A DNA stretch of 64,000 nucleotides, taken from positions 8,767-72,766 of the forward strand of contig JBBIKX010000001.1 of the NCBI GenBank assembly GCA_037445205.1, written 5' to 3'. The notes under the pieces were generated by a model that did no database searches, was not told where the DNA came from, and was given only the letters and a program-made list of their open reading frames with translations. The stretch comes from Candidatus Wildermuthbacteria bacterium. GTDB lineage: Bacteria > Patescibacteriota > Minisyncoccia > Minisyncoccales > PEYH01. A program made the translations under genes and the position numbers. The number at the start of each line of letters is the position of its first letter. Within the stretch, counting starts at the first letter, position 1. Shown one piece after another: positions 9,788-64,000 of this stretch.

Positions 9788-9815
9788 TTTTTAATTCAAG
9801 GCGATAATCAAAGCT

Positions 9816-10187: not shown

Positions 10188-10211
10188 ATTTAAGACGATA
10201 AACTAATTTTT

Positions 10212-11088: not shown

Positions 11089-11097
11089 GATTTAAAT

Positions 11098-11283
11098 ATG
11101 GCTACAGAAGCGCAAATATACAAATCTTTAAAAAATCCGAAATTCAGCTCAAGAATTATGAGAAGATGTTTTAGATGCGGAAGAAAAAAGGGATATCTGA
11201 GAAAATTTGGCCTTTGTAGAATTTGTTTCAGAGAATTAGCGCATAAAGGCCTTATTCCCGGAATCAGAAAATCAAGCTGGTAA
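11098..11283 (+). CDS. rpsN: 30S ribosomal protein S14, zinc-binding type Z
   Basis: 61 aa; [20 protein letters not shown] zinc motif. Confidence 0.9.
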
Positions 11284-11305
11284 ATTACATTTATTAAAAA
11301 AAGAT

Positions 11306-11692: not shown

Positions 11693-11694
11693 AT

Positions 11695-12246: not shown

Positions 12247-12262
12247 CGGATTCATATAAAAA

Positions 12263-12688: not shown

Positions 12689-12693
12689 TTTTT

Positions 12694-13170
12694 ATGGAAA
12701 AAAAAGGTTTTAGAAAATTTAATCAAAAGCCGGCGGATGATTTTGTTTCCGAGTTTTTGGAAGTGAGGAGGGTGACAAAGGTTACAACCGGAGGGAAGAA
12801 ATTAAGATTTCGCGGCATTGTTGTTATAGGCGATAAGAAGGGAAAGGTTGGTTTGGGAGTGGCAAAGGGAAAAGATGTCGCCCAGGCGATTGAAAAAGCA
12901 GAAGCATCGGCAAGAAAAAATATAATTGATGTGCCCATCGTTGAGGGAACCATACCGCACGAAGTTATGGCAAAATTCGGCGCGGCAGTTATTCTTTTAA
13001 GACCCCAAAGAAAAGGAAGGGGGTTGGTTGCGGGCGGAACAGTGAGGGTTATTTGTCAGCTTGCAGGCATTAAAAACATTTCTTCAAAAACCCTTGGAAC
13101 AACAAGAAACAAGCTGAATAACGCCCGGGCAACTCTTAGAGCGATAAAGCAATTAAGGATAAAAAAGTAG
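12694..13170 (+). CDS. rpsE: 30S ribosomal protein S5
   Basis: 158 aa; followed directly by L15 (no L30). Confidence 0.93.
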   Translation: MEKKGFRKFNQKPADDFVSEFLEVRRVTKVTTGGKKLRFRGIVVIGDKKGKVGLGVAKGKDVAQAIEKAEASARKNIIDVPIVEGTIPHEVMAKFGAAVILLRPQRKGRGLVAGGTVRVICQLAGIKNISSKTLGTTRNKLNNARATLRAIKQLRIKK

Positions 13171-13173
13171 TTT

Positions 13174-13617
13174 ATGCAAATTCACCAGATTAAGCCAAAA
13201 AATCCCCGCAAAAGGAAAAAACGGATCGGAAGGGGAGGCAAAAGAGGGGTTTTTTCCGGAAAGGGAACCAAAGGACAGAAATCGCGCGCAGGAAGAAGAA
13301 TGCAGCCCCTTATCAGAACCCTCATTAAAAAATATCCAAAACTCAGAGGATATAGCTTTAAGGCAAAAAATAAAAATCAAAATTCAAAAATCGCCGCTTT
13401 GAATATAGAAACCTTAGAAAAACAATTTCAAGACGGGGATAAGGTTTCTTTTAAGAGTTTGCTTGAAAAAAGAATAATTCGTAAAATAAAAGGAGCAGCG
13501 CCCAGAGTAAAAATTTTAGGAAGGGGCAATTTAAACAAAAAAATTACAATTGAAAAATGCATGGTTTCCAAAACCGCCCGGGAGAAAATTAAAAAAACGG
13601 GCGGAAAGATTTTATAA
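13174..13617 (+). CDS. rplO: 50S ribosomal protein L15
   Basis: 147 aa; Gly/Lys-rich N-terminus. Confidence 0.9.
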   Translation: MQIHQIKPKNPRKRKKRIGRGGKRGVFSGKGTKGQKSRAGRRMQPLIRTLIKKYPKLRGYSFKAKNKNQNSKIAALNIETLEKQFQDGDKVSFKSLLEKRIIRKIKGAAPRVKILGRGNLNKKITIEKCMVSKTAREKIKKTGGKIL

Positions 13618-14936: not shown

Positions 14937-15656
14937 ATGTCGGAGTTAAAAAAAATAGACAGCCAGAGGATTATTATTGTTATTGGACCTCCGGGATCGG
15001 GCAAGGGAACTCAGGCAATTCTTCTTGCCGATAAATTGGGGTTATATTATTTTGAAACAAGCAAAATAATAGAGCTTAACGTGATGAATGCAAAGAAAGG
15101 AGAGTGGCAGATGGTTGAGGGTAAAAAATATTTTCTTGAAAACGAAAAAATAATATGGGAGAAAGGGGGATTGTGCAGTCCGCCGATAGTAACTTTTTGG
15201 GTCAAGGAAAAAATTAAAAATTTGGCAAACGAAAATCAAGGTATTATTTTTGCGGGTAGTCCTAGAACTATTTACGAAGCAGAAAACCTAATGCCTCTGC
15301 TGGAAAAACTTTATAAAAAAGAAAATATCAAGATTGTTTTGTTAGATTTGCCCCCGGAGCAGACATTGTGGCGCAATTCAAGAAGAAAAATCTGCACATT
15401 AATGCGCCATCCGATTATTTATCATCAGGAAACAAAAAAACTGAAAATTTGCCCGCTCGACGGCTCTAAGCTGGTGACAAGAGTGGGGCTTGACAGTAAA
15501 AAATCAATCAAATTAAGAGTTGAACAGTATCAAATCAGAACCTTTCCGGTTATAGACTATCTCAAGAAAAACCAATACGAAGTTGTAAAGATAAACGCGA
15601 TGCCCGCTCCATCAATAGTTTTTTCCGATATTTGCGACGCACTTGATATAAAATGA
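14937..15656 (+). CDS. adk: Adenylate kinase (with internal insertion)
   Basis: 239 aa; IIVIGPPGSGKGTQA P-loop. Confidence 0.9.
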   Translation: MSELKKIDSQRIIIVIGPPGSGKGTQAILLADKLGLYYFETSKIIELNVMNAKKGEWQMVEGKKYFLENEKIIWEKGGLCSPPIVTFWVKEKIKNLANENQGIIFAGSPRTIYEAENLMPLLEKLYKKENIKIVLLDLPPEQTLWRNSRRKICTLMRHPIIYHQETKKLKICPLDGSKLVTRVGLDSKKSIKLRVEQYQIRTFPVIDYLKKNQYEVVKINAMPAPSIVFSDICDALDIK

Positions 15657-16405
15657 GAGAAATTCCCGTTAAAACCAAAGAAGAAATAGAAATTATGGCC
15701 AGGGCCGGAAAAATCCTGGCTTTAATTTTAGATTCTTTAAAAAAAGAGATTCGAGCCGGCATAAAAACAAAAGATTTAGACTTAAAGGCCCGTCAATTAA
15801 TTAATTTTTACAAAGCGAAGCCAGCTTTTCTGGGATACGATAATTTTCCGGCTGTTTTATGCGTTTCCGTGAACGACATAATCGTCCACGGAGTGCCCTC
15901 TGATCATCAATTAAAAACAGGGGATATTATAAGCCTGGATCTTGGAATAAAATATGGCGGTTTTTATGTTGATATGGCGGTTACGATGCCGGTTGGAAAA
16001 GTTGATTCCGAGGCCTTAAGATTGATAAAAACCACAAAAAAAGCGCTCAAAAGAGCAATCAAAAAAGTCAGGCCCGGGAACACTTTTGGCGATGTCAGCA
16101 ACACTATTCAAAGATATATTGAGAAGCGGGGATTTTTTGTGATAAAAGATCTGTGCGGGCATGGCATCGGGAAAAAGCTTCACGAACCGCCGGAAATTTT
16201 AAATTATGGCAAAAGAAAAACAGGTCCTTTGTTGCGCGAAGGAATGGTTTTTTGTATAGAGCCAATGGCTTCAATCAGCGCTGAAAAAACAAAAAAATCC
16301 GATGATATCTGCGGATACAAAACGATTGATGGATCTCTGTCCGCCCATTTTGAACATACAGTGGCAGTGACAAAAAATGGGGCAAGGATTCTCACTAAAA
16401 TTTGA
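15653..16405 (+). CDS. map: Methionine aminopeptidase type I
   Basis: 250 aa; pita-bread fold metal ligands. Confidence 0.93.
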   Translation: MREIPVKTKEEIEIMARAGKILALILDSLKKEIRAGIKTKDLDLKARQLINFYKAKPAFLGYDNFPAVLCVSVNDIIVHGVPSDHQLKTGDIISLDLGIKYGGFYVDMAVTMPVGKVDSEALRLIKTTKKALKRAIKKVRPGNTFGDVSNTIQRYIEKRGFFVIKDLCGHGIGKKLHEPPEILNYGKRKTGPLLREGMVFCIEPMASISAEKTKKSDDICGYKTIDGSLSAHFEHTVAVTKNGARILTKI

Positions 16406-16461
16406 CGATTGGATCATATTATATTACTATAAAGAATCCCAAAAAAGATAAGGAGGTAGTG
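16402..16461 (+). promoter_or_regulatory. Promoter (TTGACG - 17 nt - TACTAT) plus conserved leader ending in AAGGAGGTAG for cassette A
   Basis: Leader ATATTATATTACTATAAAGAATCCCAAAAAAGATAAGGAGGTAG is near-identical to the leader at 56351-56387. Confidence 0.45.
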
Positions 16462-16839
16462 ATGAGAAGGATAACGCTTTTAGTAGGACTAGTTCCGCTT
16501 TCGCTCTGCACGGTTTTGGCGAGTCATTTCCTTGAGCTGCGCGGTTTCCATTACGAGCAAGCCGCTGTCTTATTTCTTCCTTTCTTAATATGGCTGACCT
16601 TATTGCGGCTTGTGGAAGGGTCAAGGGCTTGGATAGCTTGGATCGGATTTGGAACCGCCAGCGCATTGGGCGGTTTCGTTGTTTTTTCGGTGGTTCTGCA
16701 TCATCTTGCAGAGTGGAAAATAGGCCTTTGTCTCATCATGTTAGTTGCCTACTGTTTTGCCTGTGGGTTCGTTGGCCTGCTTGGTTACGATATCTGGAAG
16801 CTACAGCGCCACAATCGCGACAAGAAGAAAAAATCGTAA
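16462..16839 (+). CDS. GC-rich small membrane protein (about 4 TM), cassette A
   Basis: 125 aa from ATG 16462, 8 nt after AAGGAGG; GC far above flanks; hydrophobic. Confidence 0.6.
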   Translation: MRRITLLVGLVPLSLCTVLASHFLELRGFHYEQAAVLFLPFLIWLTLLRLVEGSRAWIAWIGFGTASALGGFVVFSVVLHHLAEWKIGLCLIMLVAYCFACGFVGLLGYDIWKLQRHNRDKKKKS

Positions 16840-16882
16840 CAAAGCAGAGCCGGGCAGATGGGGAAATTGAGGTTGGGATGTC

Positions 16883-16916
16883 GGGGGCATAGCTAGGCCC
16901 CCTTTTTCTTTTTTTG
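16883..16916 (+). terminator. Intrinsic terminator (GGGGGC/GCCCCC stem plus T-run) ending cassette A
   Basis: GC hairpin followed by TTTTTCTTTTTTT. Confidence 0.55.
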
Positions 16917-16961
16917 AAAAAGATGATAGAATAAAAAAGATAAAGAATTAATTTAAAAAAA

Positions 16962-17696
16962 ATGAAACTATCAATAATTATTCCCGCGTACAACGAAGAA
17001 AAAAGACTGCCCAAAACGCTTTTATCGATAGATAAGCATTTGAAAGGACAATCTTATGAATATGAGATTATTGTTGTAAGCGATGGTTCAAAAGACGACA
17101 CCGCAAAGATGGCTAATGATTTAAAGCCCAATGTTTCAGGCCTGAAAGTGATTGACAACAAGGAAAATCACGGCAAGGGATATGTCGTGAGGCAGGGAAT
17201 GCTTGAGGCAAGAGGAGATTATCGCATTTTCAGCGATGCTGATAATTCTACCACCATTGATCAGGTTGAAAGAATGTGGCCTTGGTTTGAAAAAGGATAC
17301 GACATCGTCATAGGATCAAGAGATGTTGAGGGTTCTGTTTTAAATCCTCCCCAGCCCTGGCTCAGAAAAGTTATCTTTGGAGGAGGGTTCAAGCTGGTCA
17401 GAAAATTTATAATCGGCCTTTGGAATATAAATGATACCCAGTGCGGCTTTAAATGCTTTACAAAAAAAGCCGCGGAAGACATTTTCTCTTCTTCAAAAAT
17501 TGACGGCTTTGCGTTTGATGTGGAAATACTGGTTTTGGCGAAGAGAATGAAGCATAAAATCAAAGAAATACCAATTACCTGGATAAATGACGTTGAGTCA
17601 AAAGTGAAATTAAAACATGTTTTCAAAATGTTTTTGGAAATGCTTAAATTGAGAAAGGATTTAGTTTTTGGAAAATATGGAAAAAGAAGAATCTAA
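16962..17696 (+). CDS. Family 2 glycosyltransferase (dolichyl-/polyprenyl-phosphate sugar transferase-like)
   Basis: 244 aa; IIIPAYNEE...VVSDGSKDDT, DxD-type GT-A signatures. Confidence 0.8.
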   Translation: MKLSIIIPAYNEEKRLPKTLLSIDKHLKGQSYEYEIIVVSDGSKDDTAKMANDLKPNVSGLKVIDNKENHGKGYVVRQGMLEARGDYRIFSDADNSTTIDQVERMWPWFEKGYDIVIGSRDVEGSVLNPPQPWLRKVIFGGGFKLVRKFIIGLWNINDTQCGFKCFTKKAAEDIFSSSKIDGFAFDVEILVLAKRMKHKIKEIPITWINDVESKVKLKHVFKMFLEMLKLRKDLVFGKYGKRRI

Positions 17697-40531: not shown

Positions 40532-40589
40532 GGTTGAAATTTTTTTTGATTCTGATAGATTGAAAAAATAACCAAAAGGAGGTGAGACA

Positions 40590-41588
40590 GTGTCTTGCGA
40601 TACAGCCGTTATCGTGAATGTGCAGGCGGGCGCGGGAATGACTCGCTGGAAGTTGGCGCATCTTATGCGCCAGTTAAACCGCATTCTTTCTGTGCCCAAG
40701 AGTTGTGTCTGGCTGACTCGGGAAACCGGCGAGAGCAGCGCCACATCCCTGGCATCTTTTGCCCAAAGCAGAGGGGCCAAAGCAGTGATTGTCTTTGGCG
40801 GAGACGGCACGGTTCATCAGGCAGTAAACGGCCTGAAACTGCCCGATCCTTCAATCTCTGTTGGCATTGTGCCCTGCGGTACGGCCAACGTGGTTGCTTC
40901 CTGCCTTGGAATGCCAAGAAATGTCAAAGCGGCGCTGGAAGTCATAAGGGCCGGAATGACAAGAAAGATCGATCTGGGAATCCTGGAGGGAGATGGCCTT
41001 CCAAGATACGCGGTTTCCACGCTAAGCGTGGGACTTGACGCGATGATAAACGAACTGGCGCATCGTGTTAAGCCCCTGTTTCGGAAATACCATCTGCCAT
41101 CCATCTTGGGCTACATTCCGCCTCTTCTTAGATACACTCTTAATGAAGTTCCGCTCTACGATGTAGCTGTCAAAAAGGATGGATTGGTTTTTTGCGAAAG
41201 GATATCCTTTCTGGCAGTAACAAACACTCCATGGTATGGAGGCGGATTGGTGGACAGAACTGCCAAGCTTGACGACGGGCTGTTTAACATGATATGCGCC
41301 AGAAAGATCAGGTCCCGCGATCTTCCCTGGTGGATGTTTCAGATGTGGCAGGGAAATCACATCTATTATCCCAAGGTTTTTCTGCCCTGCTCTTCGTTTT
41401 CAGGATTAAGCATAAGTTCTGACTTTCCCTTGCCCGCGCAGATTGACGGACAGATTCTGCCCGCCCGGAAGAACATCGCAATCTCTGTCGTTCCCCGCCT
41501 CCTGCAGGTTTTCGCACCTTTGCCCCAACCAGAAAGAACAAAGCATTCTGGTTGGGGTTGTTTTTTTGATATGTCCAGGTTCAGATAG
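40590..41588 (+). CDS. Lipid kinase of the YegS/BmrU/DgkB family (diacylglycerol-kinase catalytic domain)
   Basis: 332 aa, GTG start 8 nt after AGGAGGTG; VIVFGGDGTVHQAVNGL (GGDG) and VTNTPWYGGGL; about 57% GC. Confidence 0.8.
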   Translation: MSCDTAVIVNVQAGAGMTRWKLAHLMRQLNRILSVPKSCVWLTRETGESSATSLASFAQSRGAKAVIVFGGDGTVHQAVNGLKLPDPSISVGIVPCGTANVVASCLGMPRNVKAALEVIRAGMTRKIDLGILEGDGLPRYAVSTLSVGLDAMINELAHRVKPLFRKYHLPSILGYIPPLLRYTLNEVPLYDVAVKKDGLVFCERISFLAVTNTPWYGGGLVDRTAKLDDGLFNMICARKIRSRDLPWWMFQMWQGNHIYYPKVFLPCSSFSGLSISSDFPLPAQIDGQILPARKNIAISVVPRLLQVFAPLPQPERTKHSGWGCFFDMSRFR

Positions 41589-41647
41589 ATATTGACCAAA
41601 ATATTCTTTTATGATATAATTTGGATATCCTAAGGAGGTGATGCGTG

Positions 41648-41815
41648 ATGAAGGCGGGTATAGTGATTTTCCGGCATACACAAGTAGAAACGCTGCAGGC
41701 GACGGTTAACGCGTTTCTCAAGGTTCACGCTCCACATATGGAGAACCTTGAGCATCAGCTGGTAGTGACTCCAGACGGCACTATCGTCTTGACCCTGCTT
41801 TATCGGGCTAAGTAG
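41648..41815 (+). CDS. Small GC-rich hypothetical protein (55 aa)
   Basis: Manual translation MKAGIVIFRHTQVETLQATVNAFLKVHAPHMENLEHQLVVTPDGTIVLTLLYRAK; TAAGGAGGTG SD 6 nt upstream; below ORF-track cutoff. Confidence 0.5.
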   Translation: MKAGIVIFRHTQVETLQATVNAFLKVHAPHMENLEHQLVVTPDGTIVLTLLYRAK

Positions 41816-41837
41816 GGTTCGTAAGGAGGGAGGAACG

Positions 41838-42101
41838 ATGCGTAAGCTCTTTGCGGCGATTGTCGGACTCTACCGTCGGCTCTGGATGATTGAGCCCCGC
41901 CGTTTCAAACGGGGACAAATCATCCAGTTCGAAGACTGGCGCGATGGCATTAGAGTTGCCAAAGCCAGATACCTGGTTCTCGGCAATACACCCTCCGAGA
42001 AGAGGTACGTCCTGGAGGGTGTTGGGCCCGGCAACAAGGGGAGGCGCGAGCGCCTTCGCTTCCGCTGGGTTGACAAACACGCACATTTGGTGCGCGGCTG
42101 A
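41838..42101 (+). CDS. GC-rich hypothetical basic protein (87 aa)
   Basis: GTAAGGAGGGAGG SD; no known domain. Confidence 0.55.
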   Translation: MRKLFAAIVGLYRRLWMIEPRRFKRGQIIQFEDWRDGIRVAKARYLVLGNTPSEKRYVLEGVGPGNKGRRERLRFRWVDKHAHLVRG

Positions 42102-42111
42102 AATGCCTGTT

Positions 42112-42155
42112 CCGCCCGGGACTAAGGAGGAGTTCCGGGCGGTTGTTGTTTTTTG
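42112..42155 (+). terminator. Intrinsic terminator (CCGCCCGG/CCGGGCGG plus TTGTTGTTTTTTG)
   Basis: 8-bp GC stem, long loop, U-tract after the 87-aa ORF. Confidence 0.6.
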
Positions 42156-42204
42156 ATGAAGTTTCTGGTATCGTATCAAGTATCGCACATTGGGAGGTGG
42201 AACG

Positions 42205-42348
42205 GTGCACAAATGGGTAATCTTTGCGGTAGTGGTGATCCCAAGCATTCTCATCGGTTCCCTTATCTGCCTTTTCCAAGGAAAGGGCAGAAGAGTGTGG
42301 TCCTTCGCTAAGGGGAGAGTCTTTGCTTGGGCGGAAACGGATTGGTGA
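42205..42348 (+). CDS. Tiny hydrophobic membrane peptide (47 aa), GTG start
   Basis: VHKWVIFAVVVIPSILIGSLICLFQGKGRRVWSFAKGRVFAWAETDW; GGGAGGTGG SD 5 nt upstream; hairpin AACCGGC...GCCGGTT downstream. Confidence 0.4.
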   Translation: MHKWVIFAVVVIPSILIGSLICLFQGKGRRVWSFAKGRVFAWAETDW

Positions 42349-42352
42349 ACAC

Positions 42353-42369
42353 AATCCTCTTGGCACTTG
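42353..42369 (+). repeat. Degenerate third copy of the tRNA-Asp 3' repeat (AATCCTCTTGGCACTTG, 11/17 match) at the right edge of the GC-rich island
   Basis: Aligned by eye to AATCCCCTTGGGTCCGC; sits where GC-rich DNA reverts to AT-rich. Confidence 0.3.
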
Positions 42370-42439
42370 TTAACCGGCGCATCTTCTGATGGGCCGGTTC
42401 ATCTTTTAACAAAAAATGCTCCATTTTTTGATTTGATTT

Positions 42440-53540: not shown

Positions 53541-55024
53541 TAAATTCATCAAAAAAATATATTCCCGTCATCGGGCTTGAAATACATACGGAATTAAAAA
53601 CTAATTCCAAAATGTTTTGCGGGTGCAAAAACGATTCGCAGGAAAAAGAAGCGAATTTGAATATTTGTCCTGTTTGCATGGGTCATCCCGGCACTCTCCC
53701 CGTTATAAACAAAACAGCGATTCGTTTTGTCATAAAAACAGGGATTGCTCTGAATTGTAAAATTACAAAAGAGTCGCGATTTGAAAGAAAAAATTATTTT
53801 TATCCCGATCTTCCAAAAGGATATCAGATTTCTCAATACAAAGAGCCGTTTTGTTTTAATGGCTTTTTAAAAATAAATAATAAAAAAATAAGAATTAGAA
53901 GGGTTCATTTGGAAGAAGATACTGCCCGCCTGATACACTCCAAAAATGGATATTCGCTGATTGATTTCAACCGCGCCGGCATTCCTTTAATGGAGCTTGT
54001 AACGGAGCCGGACATAGAATCTTCTAAAGAGGCATCAGACTTCGCAAAAAAACTTCAGTTGATCCTGAGATATTTAAATGTTTCCAGCGCTGACATGGAA
54101 AAAGGGCAATTGAGAGTGGAGGCAAATATTTCATTAATAAACGCAAATTTTAAAGCAAAAAACGCAAAACTAGGAACAAAGGTGGAGATCAAAAATTTAA
54201 ATTCGTTTAGGGCAGTTGAGAGGGCGATAGAATATGAAATAGAAAGGCAAAAGGAGTTACTATTAAATGATGAGAGGGTGGCGCAGGAAACAAGAGGATG
54301 GGATCCTCAATCAGAAAGAACCTTTCCCCAGAGAGAAAAAGAAGAGGCGCATGATTACCGCTACTTTCCAGAGCCGGATTTGCCCCAGATTTATATAAAA
54401 AAAGACTATCTGGAGGCGATAAAAAAAGGAATTCCCGAACTTCCCGATCAAAAAATAAAAAGATTAAAAGAAGAATTTTTTGTTAACGAACAATCAGCCC
54501 AGATTCTTGTCTCTAACAGAGATTTAAGCGAGTATTTTGAAAAATCGGCAAGCGAGCTTTTAAGATGGTCAAAAGACAAAAGATTAGATCAAAAGAGCCA
54601 AAAAGAATTGATACAGAGCGCCGCCAACTATCTTTTGACAGATTTACTCGGCTGTCTTTCAGGGAAAGAATTTTCAGAAAAAGATTTTCCCATAACGCCT
54701 GAAAATTTCGGAGAGTTTATCGCTCTTGTCCGCGATAAAAAATTCACAAGCAAAATGGCAAAAATTCTTTTAGGAGAGATGTTTGATTCCGGCCAAGATC
54801 CCTCAACCATAATAAAAAAAAGAGGATTAATCCAGACGGACAACGAAGATGAGATTAAAAAAATAGTGCAAAAAATAATTTCATCAAATCCTCGGGCATT
54901 TGAAGATTATAAAAAAGGAAAAGAAAATGCTCTTCAATTCATGATTGGACAAATGATGAAAGAAACTAAAGGCACTATAAATCCCCAGATGGCAAAGAAA
55001 GCGTTGATTGATTTTTTAAAATAA
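53537..55024 (+). CDS. gatB: Asp/Glu-tRNA amidotransferase subunit B
   Basis: 495 aa; IGLEIHTELKT...MFCGC N-terminus. Confidence 0.95.
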   Translation: MINSSKKYIPVIGLEIHTELKTNSKMFCGCKNDSQEKEANLNICPVCMGHPGTLPVINKTAIRFVIKTGIALNCKITKESRFERKNYFYPDLPKGYQISQYKEPFCFNGFLKINNKKIRIRRVHLEEDTARLIHSKNGYSLIDFNRAGIPLMELVTEPDIESSKEASDFAKKLQLILRYLNVSSADMEKGQLRVEANISLINANFKAKNAKLGTKVEIKNLNSFRAVERAIEYEIERQKELLLNDERVAQETRGWDPQSERTFPQREKEEAHDYRYFPEPDLPQIYIKKDYLEAIKKGIPELPDQKIKRLKEEFFVNEQSAQILVSNRDLSEYFEKSASELLRWSKDKRLDQKSQKELIQSAANYLLTDLLGCLSGKEFSEKDFPITPENFGEFIALVRDKKFTSKMAKILLGEMFDSGQDPSTIIKKRGLIQTDNEDEIKKIVQKIISSNPRAFEDYKKGKENALQFMIGQMMKETKGTINPQMAKKALIDFLK

Positions 55025-55135
55025 TATATAATACTTAAAATCCAGAATAAGGAGGTGGTCGCCGGGATACAGTCCAAAGAGGGCGAGGGGCGTTTTCGGA
55101 AGCAAAACCGGATCTTTCTTGCGAAAGGAGCATCG

Positions 55136-55333
55136 ATGCCAGCAGTAAATCTTGTTAACGTGGCGAGGTCATTGCCGGACGAAGAGGCGGAGAGGCTTTT
55201 GCTCATCGAGCAAAGCAATCCTGATTGCCTCAGGGCGCTTTTTGCGGTCGTTCTGAGCGCCGGAACGCTGGAAAAAGCTGTTCCTCTGATCCAACGAGTT
55301 CTTGCTGGCGCACCCTTGTTTCCGGGCGGATGA
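55136..55333 (+). CDS. GC-rich small hypothetical protein (65 aa), cassette C
   Basis: MPAVNLVNVARSLPDEEAERLLLIEQSNP...; AAAGGAG SD 7 nt upstream; second AAGGAGGTGG at 55050; shares locus with the miaA 3' end on the opposite strand. Confidence 0.45.
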   Translation: MPAVNLVNVARSLPDEEAERLLLIEQSNPDCLRALFAVVLSAGTLEKAVPLIQRVLAGAPLFPGG

Positions 55334-56341
55334 AACTGGATGGGGCTCCCTTCGGGAGCCCCCTTGTTTTGTTAAAAAAGTATTTATTATTTTTCTGGCT
55401 TTTTTTTTATCCCCAACCCAATTTACTCTTTTGTCTTTTTTAAACCAGGTTATTTGTCTTTTGGCGTAACTTTCAATTGCTTTTTGGAGCATTCCGACCA
55501 TTTCATCATAGCCAATTTTTTTTTGAAGATAGCAAGCAATATATCTGTATTCCAATCCAAATTCTTCAAGCCGTTTCCAGGAAACGCCGTCTTTTCTTAG
55601 CGCTCTGACCTCTTTTATCATCCCCTGATTTAATCTTTTGTATAGCCGTTTTCTGATTAAATTTTTTAGCTCTTTTTTTTCTTTCTTGATGCCGATAATG
55701 AGCAAATCAAACAATTGGCTTTTTTTTATGACGGGTACCGGTTTTTTTGATTTCAAAACTATTTCAATTGCCCGGATTAATCTGCGGGGATTTTTTTTAT
55801 CAATAATTTTTGCCCGCCGCGGGTCCAGTTTTTTTAACATTTGATAAAGCTGGTTTGGCAATTTTTTTTCCAGTTTTTTCCTTAATTTCCAGTCCGGCGG
55901 AATTTTTGGGATGACGATTCCGTCAACGACTGATTGAATATAGAATCCGGTGCCGCCGCAAAGAATGGGCAGCTTATTTCTCTTATGGATTTCCCTTATT
56001 TTTTTTAATGCCATTTTTTGATACTGGGCGACCGTAAATTTCCTTTTTGGAGAAGCAACATCCAAAAGATGATGTTGGATGCCTCTATAAAGATATGACT
56101 GTTTTGAAATTTGAGATTTAGGACTTGGAGTTTGTTTAGAAATTAGAAATTTGGAATTAGAAATTTTATCTCGTGGAACCTTCCCGGTTCCGATATCCAT
56201 TTTGCGATAAACCTGACGGGAATCGGCCGAAATCACCTCTCCGTTAAAATTTTTTGCCAGTGCTACCGCCAAATCGCTTTTTCCCGAAGCAGTGGGTCCA
56301 AGAATAACTAACAATATTTTTCGGTCCGTTTTTTTTGACAT
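55169..56341 (-). CDS. miaA: tRNA dimethylallyltransferase with about 75-aa aberrant C-terminal extension read through a GC-rich cassette
   Basis: 390 aa; ILGPTASGKSDLA P-loop; canonical C-terminus (...RQITWFKK...) reached about 75 aa before the stop. Confidence 0.88.
   Translation of the reverse strand: MSKKTDRKILLVILGPTASGKSDLAVALAKNFNGEVISADSRQVYRKMDIGTGKVPRDKISNSKFLISKQTPSPKSQISKQSYLYRGIQHHLLDVASPKRKFTVAQYQKMALKKIREIHKRNKLPILCGGTGFYIQSVVDGIVIPKIPPDWKLRKKLEKKLPNQLYQMLKKLDPRRAKIIDKKNPRRLIRAIEIVLKSKKPVPVIKKSQLFDLLIIGIKKEKKELKNLIRKRLYKRLNQGMIKEVRALRKDGVSWKRLEEFGLEYRYIACYLQKKIGYDEMVGMLQKAIESYAKRQITWFKKDKRVNWVGDKKKARKIINTFLTKQGGSRREPHPVSSARKQGCASKNSLDQRNSFFQRSGAQNDRKKRPEAIRIALLDEQKPLRLFVRQ
55342..55374 (+). 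terminator. Intrinsic terminator with UUCG tetraloop (GGGGCTCCC-TTCG-GGGAGCCCC plus CTTGTTTTGTT)
   Basis: 9-bp GC stem, TTCG loop, U-tract; lies inside the extended miaA reading frame on the other strand. Confidence 0.6.
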
Positions 56342-56387
56342 AATCCCAAGAATATTATATCATTATAAATCCCAAAAAGGAGGTGGT
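56335..56387 (+). promoter_or_regulatory. Promoter (TTGACA - 17 - TATCAT) plus conserved leader and AAGGAGGTGG for cassette B
   Basis: Consensus -35; leader ATATTATATCATTATAAATCCCAAAAAGGAGGTGG is near-identical to the cassette A leader. Confidence 0.45.
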
Positions 56388-56389
56388 TA

Positions 56390-56683
56390 ATGTCGTATTA
56401 TTTAGCAATAATGTTTATGTTGCTAAGCGCAGGCTTTGCAAGTGCGGGGTTTAGGGTGATCCGTTATGCCCTTCGAGGAAAGCTGACAGGCACTATGCTT
56501 GATAGAGGCATGATACTCGGTACTGTCATCGTGCTTGTTGGAGTGGGGCTCGCCACGATTCCCATCATCTTCCAGAGCGGGATAAGATGGTGGTGTCTTG
56601 CGCTGGCGCTTGTGGAGGCAGTGGTCTGTATTGGGCTCTGGATGCTGCATGTCTTCTCGTCTGCGTCAATGGATTCACCCTAA
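56390..56683 (+). CDS. GC-rich small membrane protein (3 TM), cassette B
   Basis: 97 aa; strong SD; about 50% GC; opposite orientation between miaB and miaA. Confidence 0.6.
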   Translation: MSYYLAIMFMLLSAGFASAGFRVIRYALRGKLTGTMLDRGMILGTVIVLVGVGLATIPIIFQSGIRWWCLALALVEAVVCIGLWMLHVFSSASMDSP

Positions 56684-56694: not shown

Positions 56695-56730
56695 CGAGGG
56701 CTCTCTTGTGCGGGGGCCCTCCTTTTTTAT
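56695..56730 (+). terminator. Intrinsic terminator (GAGGGC/GCCCTC plus T6) ending cassette B; the miaB stop codon sits in its T-tract
   Basis: GC hairpin and TTTTTT. Confidence 0.55.
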
Positions 56731-58061
56731 TCCATCAATTTTCCTCTCAGTCCGTATGGACCAATGTTTATTATTTTGGCTTTAACAAAATTTCCTAAAA
56801 TATTTTTATCTGATTTCAATCTAATGGTTTGATAATGCCTTGTTTTTCCGACATAAAAATCATTTTTTTTGGTGAGTATCAAAACTTCCGCGGTTTTTTT
56901 AAAAAACTTCTTGTTAAAATTTAAAATGGTTTTTTTTAATACTTTGAATAATTCTTTTTCTCTTGTTTTTTTCTTAAAGTTGGGGACATCGTCGTTTAAA
57001 TGAAGGGCGGCTGTTTGAGGCCTTTTAGAATAAGCCGCAATATATCCAAACGCAAATCCGATTTTTTCAAAATTATTTTTTGTATTTTCAAATTGTTTTT
57101 TGGTCTCGCCGGGAAATCCTACAATTACATCAGAAGATACAGCCACTTCTTTTTCGATGCCGCATCTGTATTTTTTAAAATTATTTCTTATTTTTTTAAT
57201 AAGCGCTTTATATTGAGATACAGTGTAGGGCCTATTCATTTTTTTAAGGATTTCATTGTCTCCTGATTGAATTGGAAGATTAATATAGGGCGTTACTTTA
57301 TGGCATTTTGCCATTGTTTTAATTAGTTCGTCGCTTAAATCTTTTGGATGAGAAGAGGTAAATCTTATCCAAAAATTCCCCTCAATATCATTTATCATTT
57401 TAAGAAGCGTTGGAAAATTTATTTCTTTTTCTTTTTTCACTTTAAGGTTTGTGTTTTGGATTTTACCATTATAGGAATTGACATTCTGTCCCAACAGCCA
57501 TACTTCTTTTGCTCCGCTTAAAACGGCCTTTTTTATTTCACAAATAATATCTTGGGCCGGCCTTGAGATTTCTTTTCCTCTTACATAAGGTACGACGCAA
57601 TAACTGCAGAAATTATTGCACCCGGTCATTATCGGAATATAGGCAACAACAGGGGATTGATATTTAGGCATTAATTCAAAATAGTGTTTTTTTTTGAATT
57701 CAACCGACCTAATTTTAAAACCAAGCTTTTTTAATATCTCGGGCAATTTGGGAAGCTCATTTATGTCAAAGATTTCATCGCAGAATTTATTAAGTTCTTT
57801 TTTGTCTTTTTCTAAGATACATCCCGTTAAAATAATTTTATATTTTATATTTTTATTTTCATATTTGAGCCTTATCTTTTTAATTCGAGCGCTTGCTCGA
57901 TCTATCGCCGACTGTCTGACTGAACAGATATTAAACACTATCAAATCCACCCCATCGCATTTATTGGCATGATTAAATCCTGATTTTTCCAAAACGCCTG
58001 CGATTCTTTCGGAGTCAGATTTATTCATTTGGCACCCAAAAGTGATAATATGATATTTCAT
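56727..58061 (-). CDS. miaB: tRNA methylthiotransferase (MiaB/RimO radical-SAM family)
   Basis: 444 aa; MTTF CxxxC and radical SAM CNNFCSYC motifs, TRAM C-terminus. Confidence 0.9.
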   Translation of the reverse strand: MKYHIITFGCQMNKSDSERIAGVLEKSGFNHANKCDGVDLIVFNICSVRQSAIDRASARIKKIRLKYENKNIKYKIILTGCILEKDKKELNKFCDEIFDINELPKLPEILKKLGFKIRSVEFKKKHYFELMPKYQSPVVAYIPIMTGCNNFCSYCVVPYVRGKEISRPAQDIICEIKKAVLSGAKEVWLLGQNVNSYNGKIQNTNLKVKKEKEINFPTLLKMINDIEGNFWIRFTSSHPKDLSDELIKTMAKCHKVTPYINLPIQSGDNEILKKMNRPYTVSQYKALIKKIRNNFKKYRCGIEKEVAVSSDVIVGFPGETKKQFENTKNNFEKIGFAFGYIAAYSKRPQTAALHLNDDVPNFKKKTREKELFKVLKKTILNFNKKFFKKTAEVLILTKKNDFYVGKTRHYQTIRLKSDKNILGNFVKAKIINIGPYGLRGKLME

Positions 58062-61983: not shown

Positions 61984-62859
61984 TTATGCTGGTTTATAGA
62001 CACGGTTTACCAGCACTTGGCGGGCAAACGTCACCCTCCATGTCGGGCCTACGAATCCGACTTCCCGGAGCAGTTGTTCCCATTGCGGAATTGCGAGGAA
62101 GGTGTATGTTCCTTCTTTTCCCTTTCTTTGTATTTCAAGGGCGTGACGAAGTATGCTTGTGCCCTGAAGAATTCGGCTAAAATCCCGATTTCTTATGTAG
62201 GGCAGAGGATTGAGCATGTCAGGAAGAGAAGCGACAAACACCCATTGGAAGTGAACGTTTTGTCTGGGAGTAGACCAGACGATATGTCCTCCGGGCTTGA
62301 GCACCCTATGCATCTCTCTGAAAACTTCCCTCATGGCCCTTATGCCTTTTTCGCTTCGAAAGTCAGTTGCATAGGGGATAACTAAATTTGCGATAATTCC
62401 ATCAAAGTGGTTATCGTCGAAGGGAAGTTCTTCGCCAAGATGAGCGAAAACAAGATGCATGGGCAACGTGGGGTGAAGAGATTGCGTTTTCCGCGCCGGA
62501 TCAAGAACTATATCCAGACCAACTACCAATTTGATAGTTCTGCCGGATTTGTTCCATGCCAAGAGAGCCATCTTGGCGGGTCCGCAGCCTACATCCAGCC
62601 AAACTTCGTTAGCTTTGGGCTGGATTAATCCGGCGACTGTCGTTGTAAGGTTGTGGTAGGGTCTTGCCTTTTCCAGGTTTTTGTAAATCCTTGCGTAATC
62701 CCTCCAAAACGCCAACTCTTGTCCCCAAGAGCGGATCCTTCCTCTTGTGAAGGGCGAAAGCCCGTTCTCATTTGCTTCCAGCCACTCTTCTATGCTCTCC
62801 GTGCTTAATCCTTCTCCAAAGCACGGCCCAAGGATCTCTGATATGCTTTTGGTTTTCAT
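61984..62859 (-). CDS. GC-rich class I SAM-dependent methyltransferase (small-molecule/UbiE-like rather than DNA MTase)
   Basis: 291 aa; LDVGCGPAKMA motif I; no (D/N)PP(Y/F); own TTGACA-17-TATAAA promoter and AAGGAGGTAAGGA SD upstream. Confidence 0.8.
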   Translation of the reverse strand: MKTKSISEILGPCFGEGLSTESIEEWLEANENGLSPFTRGRIRSWGQELAFWRDYARIYKNLEKARPYHNLTTTVAGLIQPKANEVWLDVGCGPAKMALLAWNKSGRTIKLVVGLDIVLDPARKTQSLHPTLPMHLVFAHLGEELPFDDNHFDGIIANLVIPYATDFRSEKGIRAMREVFREMHRVLKPGGHIVWSTPRQNVHFQWVFVASLPDMLNPLPYIRNRDFSRILQGTSILRHALEIQRKGKEGTYTFLAIPQWEQLLREVGFVGPTWRVTFARQVLVNRVYKPA

Positions 62860-62939
62860 TCCTTACCTCCTTGCTTGCCCGATAAATCAAAGGGCTGTGT
62901 TTATTTTTTATAGCCGTATAGCAGGAATTTGTCAATTTT

Positions 62940-64000
62940 CTATTCTTCAATGATTTCTTCTATTTCCTCGGCAATAATTTTTGGGATTTCGTTTTCAAAA
63001 TTAACGCGGCCCGAAATGAAAACAACTTTATTTTCCTGCAGGGCGGCCGGATTTTTTTCAATGATGCTTGGAAAAATAACCGTTTCTATTTTCTCTGAAA
63101 GGTCCTCAATTTCAACAAAAAGCATTGGTTTGCCGTTCTTGGTGATAATTCTTTTTATTTTGTTGATGAGTCCGCCAATCTTTATTCTGGTCCCCGGCAT
63201 AATTTTTTTGACAAACGAGATGGGAAAATTATTTTCTTTATTTACGCCATTTTGGTAAATCTTTACTATGGGAGTTGTTTTTTCAGCGATTATTTTCTCC
63301 ATAGACCTTAGAGGATGTCCGGAAATATAAAGGCCCAGCAGTTCTTTTTCCCACAAAAGCTTTTCTTTTTCATGGGCATCTTGGCAATCTTCCATTTTCA
63401 GGCCGGGATTAATTTTGGGCAATCCGTCAAAAAGCCCTTTTTGCCCGTTAGATTTTGACTTTTTAAGCTCTCTATTATATTCAAGCAATCTCTCCAAATT
63501 TTTCAAAAGCTTGTTTCTTTTTTCGAGGTTGTCAAAAGCTCCCGCCTTGATAAGCGCCTCCATTGATTTTTTATTGAGATCTTTGCAATCTATGCGATGG
63601 ATAAAATCGCTGATTGATTGGTACTTGCCATTTGATTTTCGTTCTTTGACGATTGTTTCTACGATATTGTGCCCCACGTTCTTAATCGCCAAAAGCCCAA
63701 AGCGGATCTGATTTTTTCCTACCACGCTGAAGTTTTCAAAGCTTTCATTGATGTCGGGACCAAAAACTTCAATTTTCATTCTTTTGCATTCTTCCAAAAG
63801 AAAAGCGATTCTTTCCACGTCCTGTTTTTCGCAAGCCAAAACAGACGCCATAAACTCCACCGGAAAATGCGCTTTTAAATACGCGGTTTGATGCGCAATT
63901 GTCGCGTATCCGACGCTGTGGCTTTTGTTGAATCCATAACTTGCGAACGGCAAAAACCATTGCCATATTTTCTGGGCGATTTCTTTTTTAATGTCTTGAG
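62940..64000 (-). CDS. dnaE: DNA polymerase III alpha subunit, C-terminal portion (gene continues beyond window end)
   Basis: YGFNKSHSVGYA motif; reading frame stays open upstream to the window edge; OB-fold tail. Confidence 0.85.
   Translation of the reverse strand, partial: QDIKKEIAQKIWQWFLPFASYGFNKSHSVGYATIAHQTAYLKAHFPVEFMASVLACEKQDVERIAFLLEECKRMKIEVFGPDINESFENFSVVGKNQIRFGLLAIKNVGHNIVETIVKERKSNGKYQSISDFIHRIDCKDLNKKSMEALIKAGAFDNLEKRNKLLKNLERLLEYNRELKKSKSNGQKGLFDGLPKINPGLKMEDCQDAHEKEKLLWEKELLGLYISGHPLRSMEKIIAEKTTPIVKIYQNGVNKENNFPISFVKKIMPGTRIKIGGLINKIKRIITKNGKPMLFVEIEDLSEKIETVIFPSIIEKNPAALQENKVVFISGRVNFENEIPKIIAEEIEEIIEE

What the first reader, a model, noticed from the sequence alone, without database searches (positions are those of the whole stretch)
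16402..16916. Autonomous GC-rich mini-cassette A: promoter, conserved leader, small 4-TM membrane protein, terminator, inserted between map and the r-protein/infA block
A self-contained unit of about 500 bp (TTGACG-17-TACTAT promoter, AAGGAGGTAG RBS, 125-aa hydrophobic ORF, GGGGGC/GCCCCC terminator) has much higher GC than its flanks. Its 45-nt promoter-leader is almost identical to that of cassette B at 56351-56387. That implies a dispersed family of related insertion cassettes encoding small membrane proteins, a feature type I would not expect in a streamlined CPR genome.
Basis: seen in the sequence. Interest (0 to 1): 0.75.

Follow-up and report, generated by a model that had tools for sequence, protein, structure and literature searches.

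The report
GC-rich accessory membrane-protein gene cassette
This is a real, self-contained small gene for a four-helix membrane protein, foreign in composition and carrying a ribosome-binding site that the organism's core genes lack; it fills a variable slot in a tiny-genome (CPR) bacterium, and nothing shows it to be a copy of a mobile element family.

Summary
Window 16402-16916 contains TTGACG-17-TACTAT, AAGGAGGT, a 125-aa four-TM ORF (16462-16839) and a GGGGGC/GCCCCC+T terminator. GC is about 0.50, against 0.387 for the window. Its promoter-leader recurs only at cassette B (56335-56389).

Proteins A and B are not homologous (hhalign probability 0.1%). There are no terminal repeats, no recombinase and no further leader copies in about 187 kb of this and related DNA. 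What A and B share is a reused promoter/5'UTR module.

The larger pattern is different. The window holds 8 GC-rich genes (GC3 0.50-0.68) in 6 units. All 8 have a strong Shine-Dalgarno site (about -12 kcal/mol), while 71 core genes have essentially none (mean -1.3; p=2.5e-7). Eight related Paceibacteria contigs show the same split.

The map|GT2 slot is empty in two relatives. Others hold a 26%-identical allele of A, a decayed remnant, or an unrelated two-gene cassette.

A evolves fast (dN/dS 0.70 against 0.05-0.26 for core genes). It has no homologue outside three contigs.

Best reading: a moron-like, horizontally acquired, dispensable envelope-protein unit. Its biochemical function is unknown.

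The parts
16402..16430 (+). Cassette A promoter: -35 TTGACG (overlaps the map stop codon TGA at 16403-16405), 17-nt spacer, -10 TACTAT
   Evidence: Consensus scan; sequence. The same -35/stop-codon overlap is seen in relative L038. Predicted only; no transcript data.
16416..16457 (+). Promoter/5'UTR module shared with cassette B (ATATTATATTACTATAAAGAATCCCAAAAAAGATAAGGAGGT), ending in the Shine-Dalgarno site AAGGAGGT (16450-16457)
   Evidence: 98% identical in the sister genome. Duplex with the anti-SD is -12.4 kcal/mol.
16462..16839 (+). CDS of protein A: 125 aa, four TM helices, basic C-terminal tail (QRHNRDKKKKS). Predicted topology N-in/C-in by my reading of the charge distribution.
   Evidence: Orthologue 83% identical in GCA_964383555.1. 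Divergent allele (26-28% identity, same four TM positions) in L038. dN/dS 0.70.
16840..16916 (+). GC-rich 3'UTR (16840-16882, GC 0.56), intrinsic terminator hairpin GGGGGC-N8-GCCCCC (16883-16902) and T-run
   Evidence: The stem is conserved while the loop changes in the sister genome.
56335..56389 (+). Cassette B promoter (TTGACA-17-TATCAT) and leader with AAGGAGGTGG. The -35 overlaps the start codon of miaA on the opposite strand, and the minus strand of this stretch carries TATAAT boxes facing miaA.
56390..56683 (+). CDS of protein B: 97 aa, three TM-like segments, unrelated to A
   Evidence: Orthologue 89% identical in the sister genome. dN/dS 0.98.
56696..56731 (+). Cassette B intrinsic terminator (10-bp stem, then T-run). 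Its 3' arm plus T-run is perfectly complementary to the A-run plus SD of the same unit (56374-56383 / 56718-56727).
55004..55365 (+). Cassette C: TTGATT-17-TATAAT promoter overlapping the gatB 3' end, GC-rich leader beginning AAGGAGGTGG, 65-aa soluble ORF (55136-55333), terminator hairpin. Hypervariable between sister genomes.
   Evidence: 26% aa identity, where flanks are about 94% nt identical.
40535..42400 (+). GC-rich island of three further SD-led units: D (lipid kinase, DAGK_cat/YegS_C, 40590-41588), E (56 aa plus 87 aa, 41645-42101) and F (47-aa single-TM, 42205-42348). Each has its own promoter-like site and terminator hairpin.
61984..62940 (-). Unit G: GC-rich SAM methyltransferase gene with TTGACA-17-TATAAA promoter and AAGGAGGT SD
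   Evidence: dN/dS 0.65.

Best explanation
Cassette A is a genuine, independently expressed accessory gene.

How it is built and expressed:
- A near-consensus sigma-70 promoter, whose -35 is built into the end of map, drives a short AT-rich leader.
- A consensus Shine-Dalgarno site directs translation of a 125-aa, four-helix inner-membrane protein with a basic cytoplasmic tail.
- A GC-rich hairpin terminator ends the transcript just upstream of the conserved promoter of the next core gene (GT2).

What class it belongs to:
- It is one of at least 8 genes in 6 units in this window. Relatives have more at the same slot.
- These genes are compositionally distinct (GC 48-58% against 38.7%; GC3 0.50-0.68) and SD-led, and they are embedded among core genes that have no SD at all.
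- The organism is a Paceibacteria-type CPR bacterium.

Most likely history (inferred):
- The GC-rich body (ORF plus terminator) was acquired horizontally from a GC-richer, SD-using source.
- It landed in a permissive gap between transcription units, in the way phage 'morons' do.
- It was fitted with, or kept, an AT-rich local-type promoter module that was also reused in front of the unrelated cassette B.
- It has since been inherited within its clade as a dispensable, fast-evolving gene. Its alleles are swapped by homologous recombination through the conserved flanks, and it sometimes decays.

Most likely role (inferred, low confidence): a non-essential envelope protein under arms-race or relaxed selection. 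Possibilities are phage exclusion, toxin immunity, or contact with the host cell of this presumably episymbiotic bacterium.
For: Shown:
- All expression signals are present.
- The unit occurs in three independent assemblies in the same context.
- Protein-level conservation: four TM segments sit at the same positions in A, its 83% orthologue and the 26% allele in L038. Conserved motifs include LVG, GF..E, H..EW and DI(W/R).
- T-rich coding strand, as expected for a membrane protein (AT skew -0.45).
- The RNA fold is not unusual (z -0.70) and there is no Rfam hit.
- Foreign composition at synonymous sites and in the 3'UTR but not in the promoter. Native membrane proteins (SecY, a 355-aa protein, the 7TM histidine kinase) are not GC-rich.
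- SD split in the window: 8/8 cassette genes have a duplex of -8.2 or stronger (7 of 8 are -11.5 or stronger). The 71 core genes average -1.3, Fisher p=2.5e-7.
- SD split in eight related contigs: 8/8 slot genes against 3/117 core genes at or below -8, Mann-Whitney p=1.7e-6.
- Slot variability: empty in L044 and L046; A-type in the window, L002 and L038; remnant in L039; unrelated two-gene cassette in L040, L043 and L045.
- Fast evolution: dN/dS is 0.70 for A, 0.98 for B and 0.65 for G, against 0.05-0.26 for ten core genes. A against L038 has dN 0.87 where Map has 0.11.
- Allele exchange: L002 Map is 91% identical to L038 Map but their A proteins are about 26% identical. Window Map is 83% identical to both, yet window A is 83% identical to L002 A.
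- ORFan status: only one other cluster among 5.8 billion proteins and 1.8 billion representatives.
- Promoter reuse.
- Taxon: the best named Map homologues are Pacebacteria, Paceibacterota or Parcubacteria. There is no uL30 gene between the S5 and L15 genes, and no uL1 gene after L11.
Against: - No donor was identified. No homologue of A, B or C was found in phage, plasmid, viral-contig or metagenome collections.
- Cassette types track clades, so a single ancient origin followed by in-situ divergence cannot be separated from import.
- dN/dS near 1 over the short comparison (30 and 21 substitutions) is also what a non-functional sequence would give.
- The promoter, terminator, transcription and translation are all predictions.
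- If this lineage has lost the 16S anti-SD, as PMC9297842 reports for most uL1-lacking Parcubacteria, the SD could not work as I assume. The 16S gene is not in the window, so I could not check.
- The functional guess (envelope, defence or host contact) has no direct support. PADLOC, PHROGs, Pfam, NCBIfam and PDB are all negative.
Confidence: 0.6

Rival explanations
1. A is a native, lineage-specific, fast-evolving gene and not an import. It arose or has long resided at this slot. Its GC-richness, strong promoter and SD reflect selection for very high or specially controlled expression, not foreign origin.
For: - Cassette type follows the Map clades.
- The -35/map-stop overlap is shared by the window and L038.
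- The promoter/leader has host-like AT content and resembles the neighbouring native GT2 leader (14-nt repeat).
- Ribosomal-protein genes also show slightly raised GC3 (0.43-0.47).
- No donor was found.
Against: - The GC excess extends into the untranslated 3'UTR, and to G-ending and C-ending codons alike.
- Ribosomal proteins, the classic highly expressed genes, have no SD here.
- Unrelated genes (a lipid kinase, a methyltransferase, soluble and membrane ORFans) share the same composition-plus-SD signature.
- Two relatives have an empty slot.
- Allele relationships are incongruent with the flanks.
Confidence: 0.2
2. One reading: A and B are members of a dispersed family of mobile insertion cassettes that carry a common 5' end and deliver small membrane-protein genes around the genome.
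For: - A shared 45-nt promoter-leader is found only at A and B.
- Both are GC-rich, both encode small multi-TM proteins, and both lie between core genes.
- An imperfect 14-nt direct repeat flanks A (16441-54 / 16933-46).
- The slot is empty in some relatives.
Against: - The proteins are not homologous.
- There are only two copies in 64 kb plus 123 kb of relatives and none elsewhere.
- No inverted terminal repeats, attC sites or recombinase.
- The flanking repeat arises in 6% of local-composition shuffles and is absent in L038.
- A and B are syntenic in the sister genomes.
- The other five GC-rich cassette genes lack this leader.
Confidence: 0.08
3. A is decaying foreign DNA with no current function. 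The intact ORF is the by-product of GC-rich sequence having few stop codons and of the short time since import.
For: - dN/dS is 0.70-0.98 with substitution counts matching neutrality.
- The remnant in L039 shows such units do decay.
- No homologues.
- The anti-SD may be absent in this lineage (PMC9297842).
Against: - The A-type ORF, its four TM segments, the SD and the terminator all survive between alleles that are only 26% identical (dN 0.87).
- The two-gene cassette stays intact at 36-44% identity in three or four genomes.
- The promoter/leader is 98% conserved while flanking genes are 78-83% conserved.
- The second half of A has dN/dS 0.38.
Confidence: 0.09
4. The GC-rich segment is a structured non-coding RNA gene, a common cause of GC peaks in AT-rich genomes, and the ORF is incidental.
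For: - A discrete GC-rich block bounded by a promoter and a terminator.
- Nucleotide identity to the sister genome is higher than in the flanks.
- dN/dS is near 1.
Against: - No Rfam match even at E up to 10.
- Folding energy is not different from shuffles (z -0.70).
- A perfect SD lies 4 nt from an ATG that opens an ORF filling the whole block.
- The L038 allele is alignable only at the protein level and keeps the same TM architecture.
- The same signal architecture precedes clear protein genes D and G.
Confidence: 0.03

Closest known systems
Phage 'morons' (Hendrix/Juhala concept, as summarised in PMC2920897)
   Same: - A single gene or small gene set inserted between genes that are adjacent in relatives.
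- Own promoter and factor-independent terminator.
- GC content different from the surroundings.
- Insertion hot spots where different units occupy the same position.
- Often small membrane proteins, toxin-antitoxin pairs or methylases.
All of these are seen here.
   Different: - Morons are defined in phage or prophage genomes. This unit sits in the core chromosome between map and a conserved glycosyltransferase block, next to the ribosomal-protein/secY/adk operon, with no phage genes nearby and no PHROG hits.
- Here the units also differ from the host in translation-initiation signal (SD against none), which is not part of the moron concept.
Putative mobile promoters / promoter reuse (Matus-Garcia et al. 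2012, PMC3488235; PMC3575422)
   Same: A highly similar promoter/5'UTR lies upstream of two non-homologous genes in one genome.
   Different: - The shared stretch is short (about 45 nt, in three blocks with two indels). It does not reach the 50-100 nt at 80% identity or more used to define those families.
- The family has only two members.
- In B the same DNA doubles as the divergent promoter region of miaA.
Strain-variable chromosomal islets / replacement-type flexible islands exchanged by homologous recombination (general concept; from my own knowledge)
   Same: A conserved-flank slot holds divergent alleles or unrelated content. Allele relationships are incongruent with the flanks, and sequence identity along the chromosome is mosaic.
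   Different: Very small scale (0.3-1.1 kb; one or two genes). The content is ORFan small proteins, not surface-polysaccharide or defence clusters.
Small phage/prophage membrane proteins (holins, superinfection-exclusion proteins) and bacteriocin immunity proteins (from my own knowledge)
   Same: Size (about 100-130 aa), 3-4 TM helices, a basic C-terminal tail in A, rapid evolution, and an accessory, stand-alone transcription unit.
   Different: No sequence or profile similarity to any such family (Pfam, PHROGs, PADLOC, PDB). No neighbouring lysin, toxin or phage gene.

Membership tests
Phage moron | Inserted between two genes that are adjacent in related genomes; variably present | tested here: met
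   L044 and L046 have map and GT2 separated by only 110-120 nt (terminator plus promoter). Other relatives hold different content.
Phage moron | Own promoter and factor-independent terminator | tested here: met
   TTGACG-17-TACTAT and a 6-bp all-GC hairpin followed by a T-run. Sequence prediction only.
Phage moron | Nucleotide composition different from neighbouring genes | tested here: met
   GC 0.48-0.51 and GC3 0.52, against 0.387 for the window and about 0.38 GC3 for core genes.
Phage moron | Resides in a phage or prophage genome | tested here: not met
   The flanks are secY-adk-map and GT2/GalT/tpiA/alaS. No PHROG hit for A. No relative in viral contigs or phage records.
Putative mobile promoter family (PMC3488235) | Upstream regions of 50-100 nt with at least 80% identity | tested here: not met
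   The shared part is about 45 nt: 16/18, 11/11 and 6/6 matches in three blocks with two indels.
Putative mobile promoter family (PMC3488235) | Downstream genes are not homologous | tested here: met
   BLASTP E 2.7; hhalign probability 0.1%.
Integron gene cassette | Promoterless ORF followed by an attC recombination site, near an integron integrase | tested here: not met
   A has its own promoter. The only 3' structure is a simple terminator hairpin. No integrase was recognised among the window ORFs examined; the Pfam scan covered only selected ORFs, not all of them.
IS / MITE-type mobile element | Terminal inverted repeats and target-site duplication; multiple copies | tested here: not met
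   No terminal inverted repeats. One imperfect 14-nt flanking direct repeat, which arises in 6% of shuffles. Only two leader copies.
Type I toxin-antitoxin toxin | Hydrophobic peptide usually under 60 aa, with an overlapping antisense RNA | tested here: not met
   125 aa with four TM segments. The only minus-strand promoter-like site (16442-16413) points away from the ORF. Antisense RNA is not testable here.
Holin | Small protein with at least one TM segment and a charged C-terminus, belonging to a holin family and encoded next to an endolysin | tested here: not met
   TM segments and a basic tail are present. There is no Pfam or PHROG holin match, and the neighbours are map and GT2.
Structured ncRNA (any Rfam family) | Match to a covariance model, or unusually stable fold | tested here: not met
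   No hit at the gathering threshold. The best sub-threshold E-values are 0.11-0.92, to unrelated eukaryotic and mycobacterial families. Fold z-score -0.70.

The most novel reading that the evidence does not exclude
In this family of Paceibacteria (CPR), translation initiation may be partitioned by gene class.
- Core genes, including ribosomal proteins, are SD-independent. The lineage shows the uL1-absent gene order that PMC9297842 links to loss of the 16S anti-SD.
- A pool of GC-rich, rapidly turning-over accessory cassettes (A, B, C, D-F, G here; the map-slot cassettes in relatives) uniformly keeps a consensus SD and a full -35/-10 promoter across alleles that have diverged to 26-44% identity.

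This could mean one of two things. Either the cell runs a second, SD-dependent initiation mode reserved for accessory genes, giving separate control of them. Or the cassettes are continually re-imported from an unrecognised GC-richer mobile element or partner organism in which SD initiation is the rule.
Probability: 0.15. Interest if true: 0.8.

Novelty: new variant of a known kind. Interest (0 to 1): 0.5.

Why it matters
CPR/Patescibacteria genomes are usually described as streamlined, and their many small hypothetical membrane proteins are treated as an undifferentiated mass.

In one Paceibacteria family, a subset of these genes forms a recognisable class: GC-rich, SD-led, promoter-and-terminator-bounded, slot-variable and fast-evolving. 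Three simple sequence criteria separate this class cleanly from the SD-less core genome. This has three practical consequences.

1. It gives a way to pick out the accessory, probably interaction-related gene pool in such genomes.
2. It warns that gene callers trained on the SD-less core may mis-start these genes, and the reverse.
3. It makes a published puzzle directly testable: whether Parcubacteria reported to lack the anti-SD still use SD pairing. The genome supplies its own internal contrast set.

For cassette A taken alone the result is modest. It is an ORFan membrane-protein islet, not a new mobile element.

Tried and rejected
1. Homology of A and B: BLASTP and hhalign found none.
2. Family assignment of A, B, C, E and F: Pfam, NCBIfam, PADLOC, PHROGs and PDB sequence searches gave nothing above noise.
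3. Remote homologues of A: the word-indexed search of 5.8 billion proteins and the full HMMER scan of 1.8 billion representatives found only the sister orthologue.
4. ncRNA: Rfam at gathering and E up to 10, plus fold z-scores, were negative for A. B gave z -2.45, explained by pairing of its SD with its terminator.
5. Further leader copies:
   - The looser pattern in genome contigs gave 31 single, unrelated hits in diverse bacteria. These are generic -10/leader/SD arrangements with no similarity to the window.
   - The viral scan gave 2 chance hits.
   - The strict pattern in metagenomes gave 0.
   - The nhmmer profile against the window and 123 kb of relatives found only the orthologous sites.
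6. Phage or plasmid origin: the search for related loci on viral contigs for the A family and for the soluble slot family, on metagenomes for the A family, and tblastn against phages and plasmids all found nothing. The lipid kinase D has only distant (23-28%) phage matches.
7. Mobile-element ends: the repeat search found only low-complexity matches. The 14-nt flanking repeat is not significant at 6% of shuffles.
8. Structure: AlphaFold with a 2-sequence alignment gave pLDDT 60. I did not run a fold search because a model of that quality gives meaningless matches.
9. I tried to extend beyond the window through the methyltransferase gene, but only a 5.8-kb Logan contig came back.
Full report
**What is there**

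- TTGACG-17-TACTAT lies at 16402-16430.
- AAGGAGGT lies at 16450-16457.
- The ATG is at 16462 and opens a 125-codon ORF that ends at 16839.
- A GGGGGC-N8-GCCCCC hairpin at 16883-16902 is followed by a T-run.
- The -35 hexamer contains the stop codon of map (TGA at 16403-16405).
- GC in 200-nt windows rises from about 0.39 to 0.49-0.51 inside the unit and falls to 0.285 just after it. The window mean is 0.387.

The second unit, B, has the same anatomy.
- Promoter: TTGACA-17-TATCAT at 56335-56363.
- Ribosome-binding site: AAGGAGGTGG.
- ORF: 97 codons at 56390-56683.
- Terminator: a 10-bp hairpin at 56696-56721.

**The shared leader is real but short**

- ATATTATATYAYTATAAA occurs exactly at A and B and nowhere else in 64 kb. 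The shuffles, scored at up to three mismatches, averaged 0.81 matches.
- TATAA-N0-4-ATCCCAAAAA occurs twice, against 0 expected.
- An nhmmer profile of the two leaders scores A and B at E 2.8e-13 and 6.2e-11. The next hit is at E 1.4, and cassette C's leader is fourth at E 2.
- In 123 kb of related contigs the profile finds only the orthologous A and B sites.
- The match consists of three blocks (16/18, 11/11 and 6/6) separated by two indels. 'Almost identical' is therefore too strong.

**It is a protein gene, not an RNA gene**

- No Rfam family matches, even at E up to 10.
- The predicted transcript folds no better than shuffles (z -0.70).
- The ORF fills the whole GC-rich block, and its coding strand is T-rich, as membrane-protein genes are.
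- Hydropathy gives four TM-like segments (6-24, 33-51, 61-79, 82-100). AlphaFold gives four helices, at low confidence (pLDDT 60).
- A divergent allele in relative L038 is the strongest evidence. It aligns only at the protein level (26-28% identity; pairwise E 3e-4). It keeps the four segments at the same positions and the motifs LVG, GF..E, H..EW and DI(W/R).

**A and B are not a protein family**

- BLASTP finds nothing (E 2.7) and hhalign gives probability 0.1%.
- A has four TM-like segments and a basic tail. B has three and no basic tail.
- Neither protein matches Pfam, NCBIfam, PADLOC, PHROGs or PDB.
- Each has just one other cluster among 5.8 billion proteins. That cluster comes from the sister genome GCA_964383555.1, at the syntenic position.
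- A full HMMER scan of 1.8 billion representatives with the A profile returned only that orthologue.

**The organism**

The best named homologues of Map are from Candidatus Pacebacteria, Paceibacterota, Parcubacteria or Patescibacteria. S5 and L15 are adjacent with no uL30 gene between them. L11 is followed by thyA, not by the uL1 gene. These gene orders fit a CPR bacterium of the uL1-lacking Parcubacteria type described in PMC9297842.

**The larger pattern: a class of GC-rich, SD-led units in an SD-less genome**

A per-gene table shows eight genes with GC3 of 0.50-0.68:
- A and B;
- C, at 55136-55333;
- D, a DAGK_cat/YegS_C lipid kinase at 40590-41588;
- E1 and E2, at 41645-42101;
- F, at 42205-42348;
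- G, a SAM methyltransferase at 61984-62859 on the minus strand.

All eight have a strong SD. The duplex with the anti-SD is -8.2 to -13.1 kcal/mol, mean -11.9. A promoter-like site and a hairpin terminator bound A, B, C and each unit of the D-F island; for G only the promoter was clear.

The 71 other genes, ribosomal proteins included, have essentially no SD. Their mean is -1.3, and only 4 are at or below -6 (Fisher p = 2.5e-7).

The GC excess of the cassettes involves G-ending and C-ending codons alike. In A it extends into the 3'UTR (0.56). The promoter/leader is AT-rich (0.30). Native membrane proteins are not GC-rich. Hydrophobic amino-acid content therefore does not explain the composition.

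**The slot is variable across relatives**

I fetched the map neighbourhood from nine further contigs, with Map identity of 68-83% to the window. The map|GT2 gap has the following states.
- A-type 4-TM gene: the window, L002 and L038.
- AT-rich remnant keeping only TM1 and the tail: L039.
- Unrelated two-gene cassette: L040, L043 and L045. The first gene encodes a soluble protein of about 125-165 aa. The second encodes a protein of about 105 aa with a weak DUF4258-like N-terminus.
- First gene of that cassette only, because the contig ends: L041 and L042.
- Nothing: L044 and L046, where 110-120 nt hold only a terminator and the conserved GT2 promoter.

Every occupied slot is GC-richer than its genome, except the decayed remnant in L039 (slot GC 0.30, locus 0.31). 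Each of the eight called slot genes has a strong SD (mean -12.7). Of 117 flanking core genes, only 3 reach -8, and the mean is -1.43 (Mann-Whitney p = 1.7e-6). Hairpin terminators close the slot in every contig that reaches its right-hand end.

**Evolutionary behaviour**

Against the sister genome:
- dN/dS is 0.70 for A, from 21 non-synonymous and 9 synonymous changes. It is 0.89 in the first half of the gene and 0.38 in the second.
- dN/dS is 0.98 for B and 0.65 for G.
- Ten core genes give 0.05-0.26.
- The A promoter/leader is 98% identical and the A CDS 92%. The flanking map and GT2 genes are 83% and 78% identical, and adk just upstream is 99%. The chromosome is a recombination mosaic.

Three further observations:
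- Cassette type follows the three Map clades. That argues for one acquisition per clade and against active hopping.
- Within clade I the alleles are incongruent with the flanks. L002 Map is 91% identical to L038 Map, yet their A proteins are about 26% identical. The window's A is 83% identical to L002's.
- Cassette C behaves the same way. Its flanks are about 94% identical, but the encoded proteins are only 26% identical.

**Mobility hallmarks are absent**

- There are no terminal inverted repeats or attC-like sites, and no recombinase was recognised among the ORFs examined.
- An imperfect 14-nt direct repeat (AAAAAAGATAA[G/A]GA) brackets A. It arises in 6% of local-composition shuffles and is absent from L038.
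- Scans of public genomes, viral contigs and metagenomes found only chance matches to the leader, and no relatives of A.

**Interpretation**

The anatomy and comparative pattern match, point for point, the criteria used for phage 'morons': inserted between adjacent genes, own promoter and terminator, deviant GC, hot spots with different occupants (PMC2920897). The exception is location. These units sit in the core chromosome, not in a phage.

The shared A/B leader is best described as promoter reuse in the sense of Matus-Garcia et al. (PMC3488235). It falls short of their length and identity threshold.

My best explanation is therefore a moron-like, horizontally acquired, dispensable accessory gene. 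It encodes a fast-evolving inner-membrane protein, is maintained and exchanged by recombination through conserved flanks, and is driven by a locally reused promoter module. I put confidence at about 0.6.

The specific role is inference from size, topology, turnover and analogy only. Candidates are an envelope protein involved in phage exclusion, toxin immunity or host contact.

**Rivals**

| Rival | Confidence |
|---|---|
| Native fast-evolving gene with no import | 0.2 |
| Non-functional decaying import | 0.09 |
| ncRNA gene | 0.03 |

**The open puzzle**

PMC9297842 reports that the 16S anti-SD motif is missing in about half of Parcubacteria. It says this loss largely coincides with the uL1-lacking group, which the gene order here suggests this organism belongs to.

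If that holds for this genome, a perfectly conserved SD on every accessory cassette is unexpected, and it persists across alleles only 26-44% identical. Two readings follow: a retained SD-dependent mode reserved for these genes, or continual re-import from an SD-using pool. The 16S gene is not in the window, and I could not retrieve it.

**Verdict**

- Observation: confirmed.
- Interpretation: partly supported.
- Novelty: a new variant of a known kind, namely moron-like islets plus promoter reuse in a CPR chromosome.
- Interest: cassette A alone is ordinary. The genome-wide SD/GC split it led to is the interesting part. Interest 0.5.

Noticed in passing
window, all genes (e.g. 4397-13617 r-protein block): Core genes, including all ribosomal-protein genes, have no Shine-Dalgarno sequence. 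The mean anti-SD duplex is -1.3 kcal/mol over 71 genes. The same holds for 117 core genes in eight related contigs.
   Followed up: yes
window 55004-55365 (cassette C) and 55169-56341 (-): Cassette C lies between gatB and miaA and is hypervariable: 26% aa identity to the sister genome's version, although the flanks are about 94% identical. In this genome miaA has lost its usual stop codon. It reads 73 codons further, antisense through C (390 aa, against 317 aa in the sister genome).
   Followed up: partly
window 40535-42400: A 1.9-kb GC-rich island (GC up to 0.58) lies 1.3 kb downstream of a tRNA-Met/Met/Asp cluster (38977-39251) and just before pheS. It holds three SD-led units: a DAGK/YegS-type lipid kinase, two small soluble ORFs (56 and 87 aa) and a 47-aa single-TM ORF. 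No integrase is present.
   Followed up: partly
window 61984-62940 (-): A GC-rich (0.49) class I SAM methyltransferase gene with a TTGACA-17-TATAAA promoter and AAGGAGGT SD lies between dnaE and a 7TM histidine kinase. dN/dS against the sister genome is 0.65, where neighbouring genes give 0.07-0.14.
   Followed up: partly
window 47562-49058: A 498-aa ORF (AT-rich, GC 0.32; no Pfam hit, no SD) after gyrB is absent from the sister genome (L003 jumps from window 47565 to 49028). Not all strain-specific genes belong to the GC-rich/SD class.
   Followed up: no
window 12694-13617 and 50007-51265: There is no uL30 gene between the S5 and L15 genes, and no uL1 gene after L11 (thyA follows). PMC9297842 associates this gene order with CPR and with the Parcubacteria subgroup that often lacks the 16S anti-SD.
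   Followed up: partly
window 16917-16961; L038-L046 equivalents: In the window and all eight relatives that reach this site, the GT2 gene downstream of the slot has a conserved extended -10 promoter (TGnTA[T/G/A]AAT) with no recognisable -35 and an SD-less A/T leader. The cassettes instead use -35/-10 promoters, which may be a second difference in signal type between core and accessory genes.
   Followed up: no
window 16441-16454 and 16933-16946: An imperfect 14-nt direct repeat (AAAAAAGATAA[G/A]GA) brackets cassette A. The left copy runs into A's SD and the right copy lies in the GT2 leader. ATAAAGAAT is also duplicated (16429 / 16940). It could be a trace of how the A leader was built from the local GT2 leader, but it arises in 6% of shuffles.
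   Followed up: partly
window 56374-56383 and 56718-56727: In cassette B the A-run plus SD (AAAAAGGAGG) is perfectly complementary to the 3' arm plus T-run of its own terminator (CCTCCTTTTT). The minimum-energy fold pairs them, and the transcript folds better than shuffles (z -2.45). This could occlude the SD or pair the mRNA ends. It is not seen in the other cassettes.
   Followed up: partly
L040 5134-5888; L043 6869-7691; L045 3886-4808: The alternative occupant of the map|GT2 slot is a two-gene unit. The first gene encodes a soluble protein of about 125-165 aa with conserved YVIARI / PxKGLxYY / AAIL motifs. The second encodes a protein of about 105 aa whose N-terminus (MKxVxTxHxxRRxLER) weakly resembles the DUF4258 toxin family (E 0.11). 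It may be a toxin-antitoxin-like pair. In L043 both genes carry the identical RBS string AAGGAGGTGAGAGAGAATG.
   Followed up: partly
window 15231-17236 vs L002: Identity to the sister genome is sharply mosaic over 2 kb: adk 99%, map 83%, cassette A 92-98%, GT2 78%. This indicates frequent homologous recombination among these Paceibacteria.
   Followed up: partly
L003 10310-11894: In the sister genome GCA_964383555.1 no gene is called where miaB lies (window 56727-58061), although the DNA aligns at about 87%. miaB may be disrupted there.
   Followed up: no
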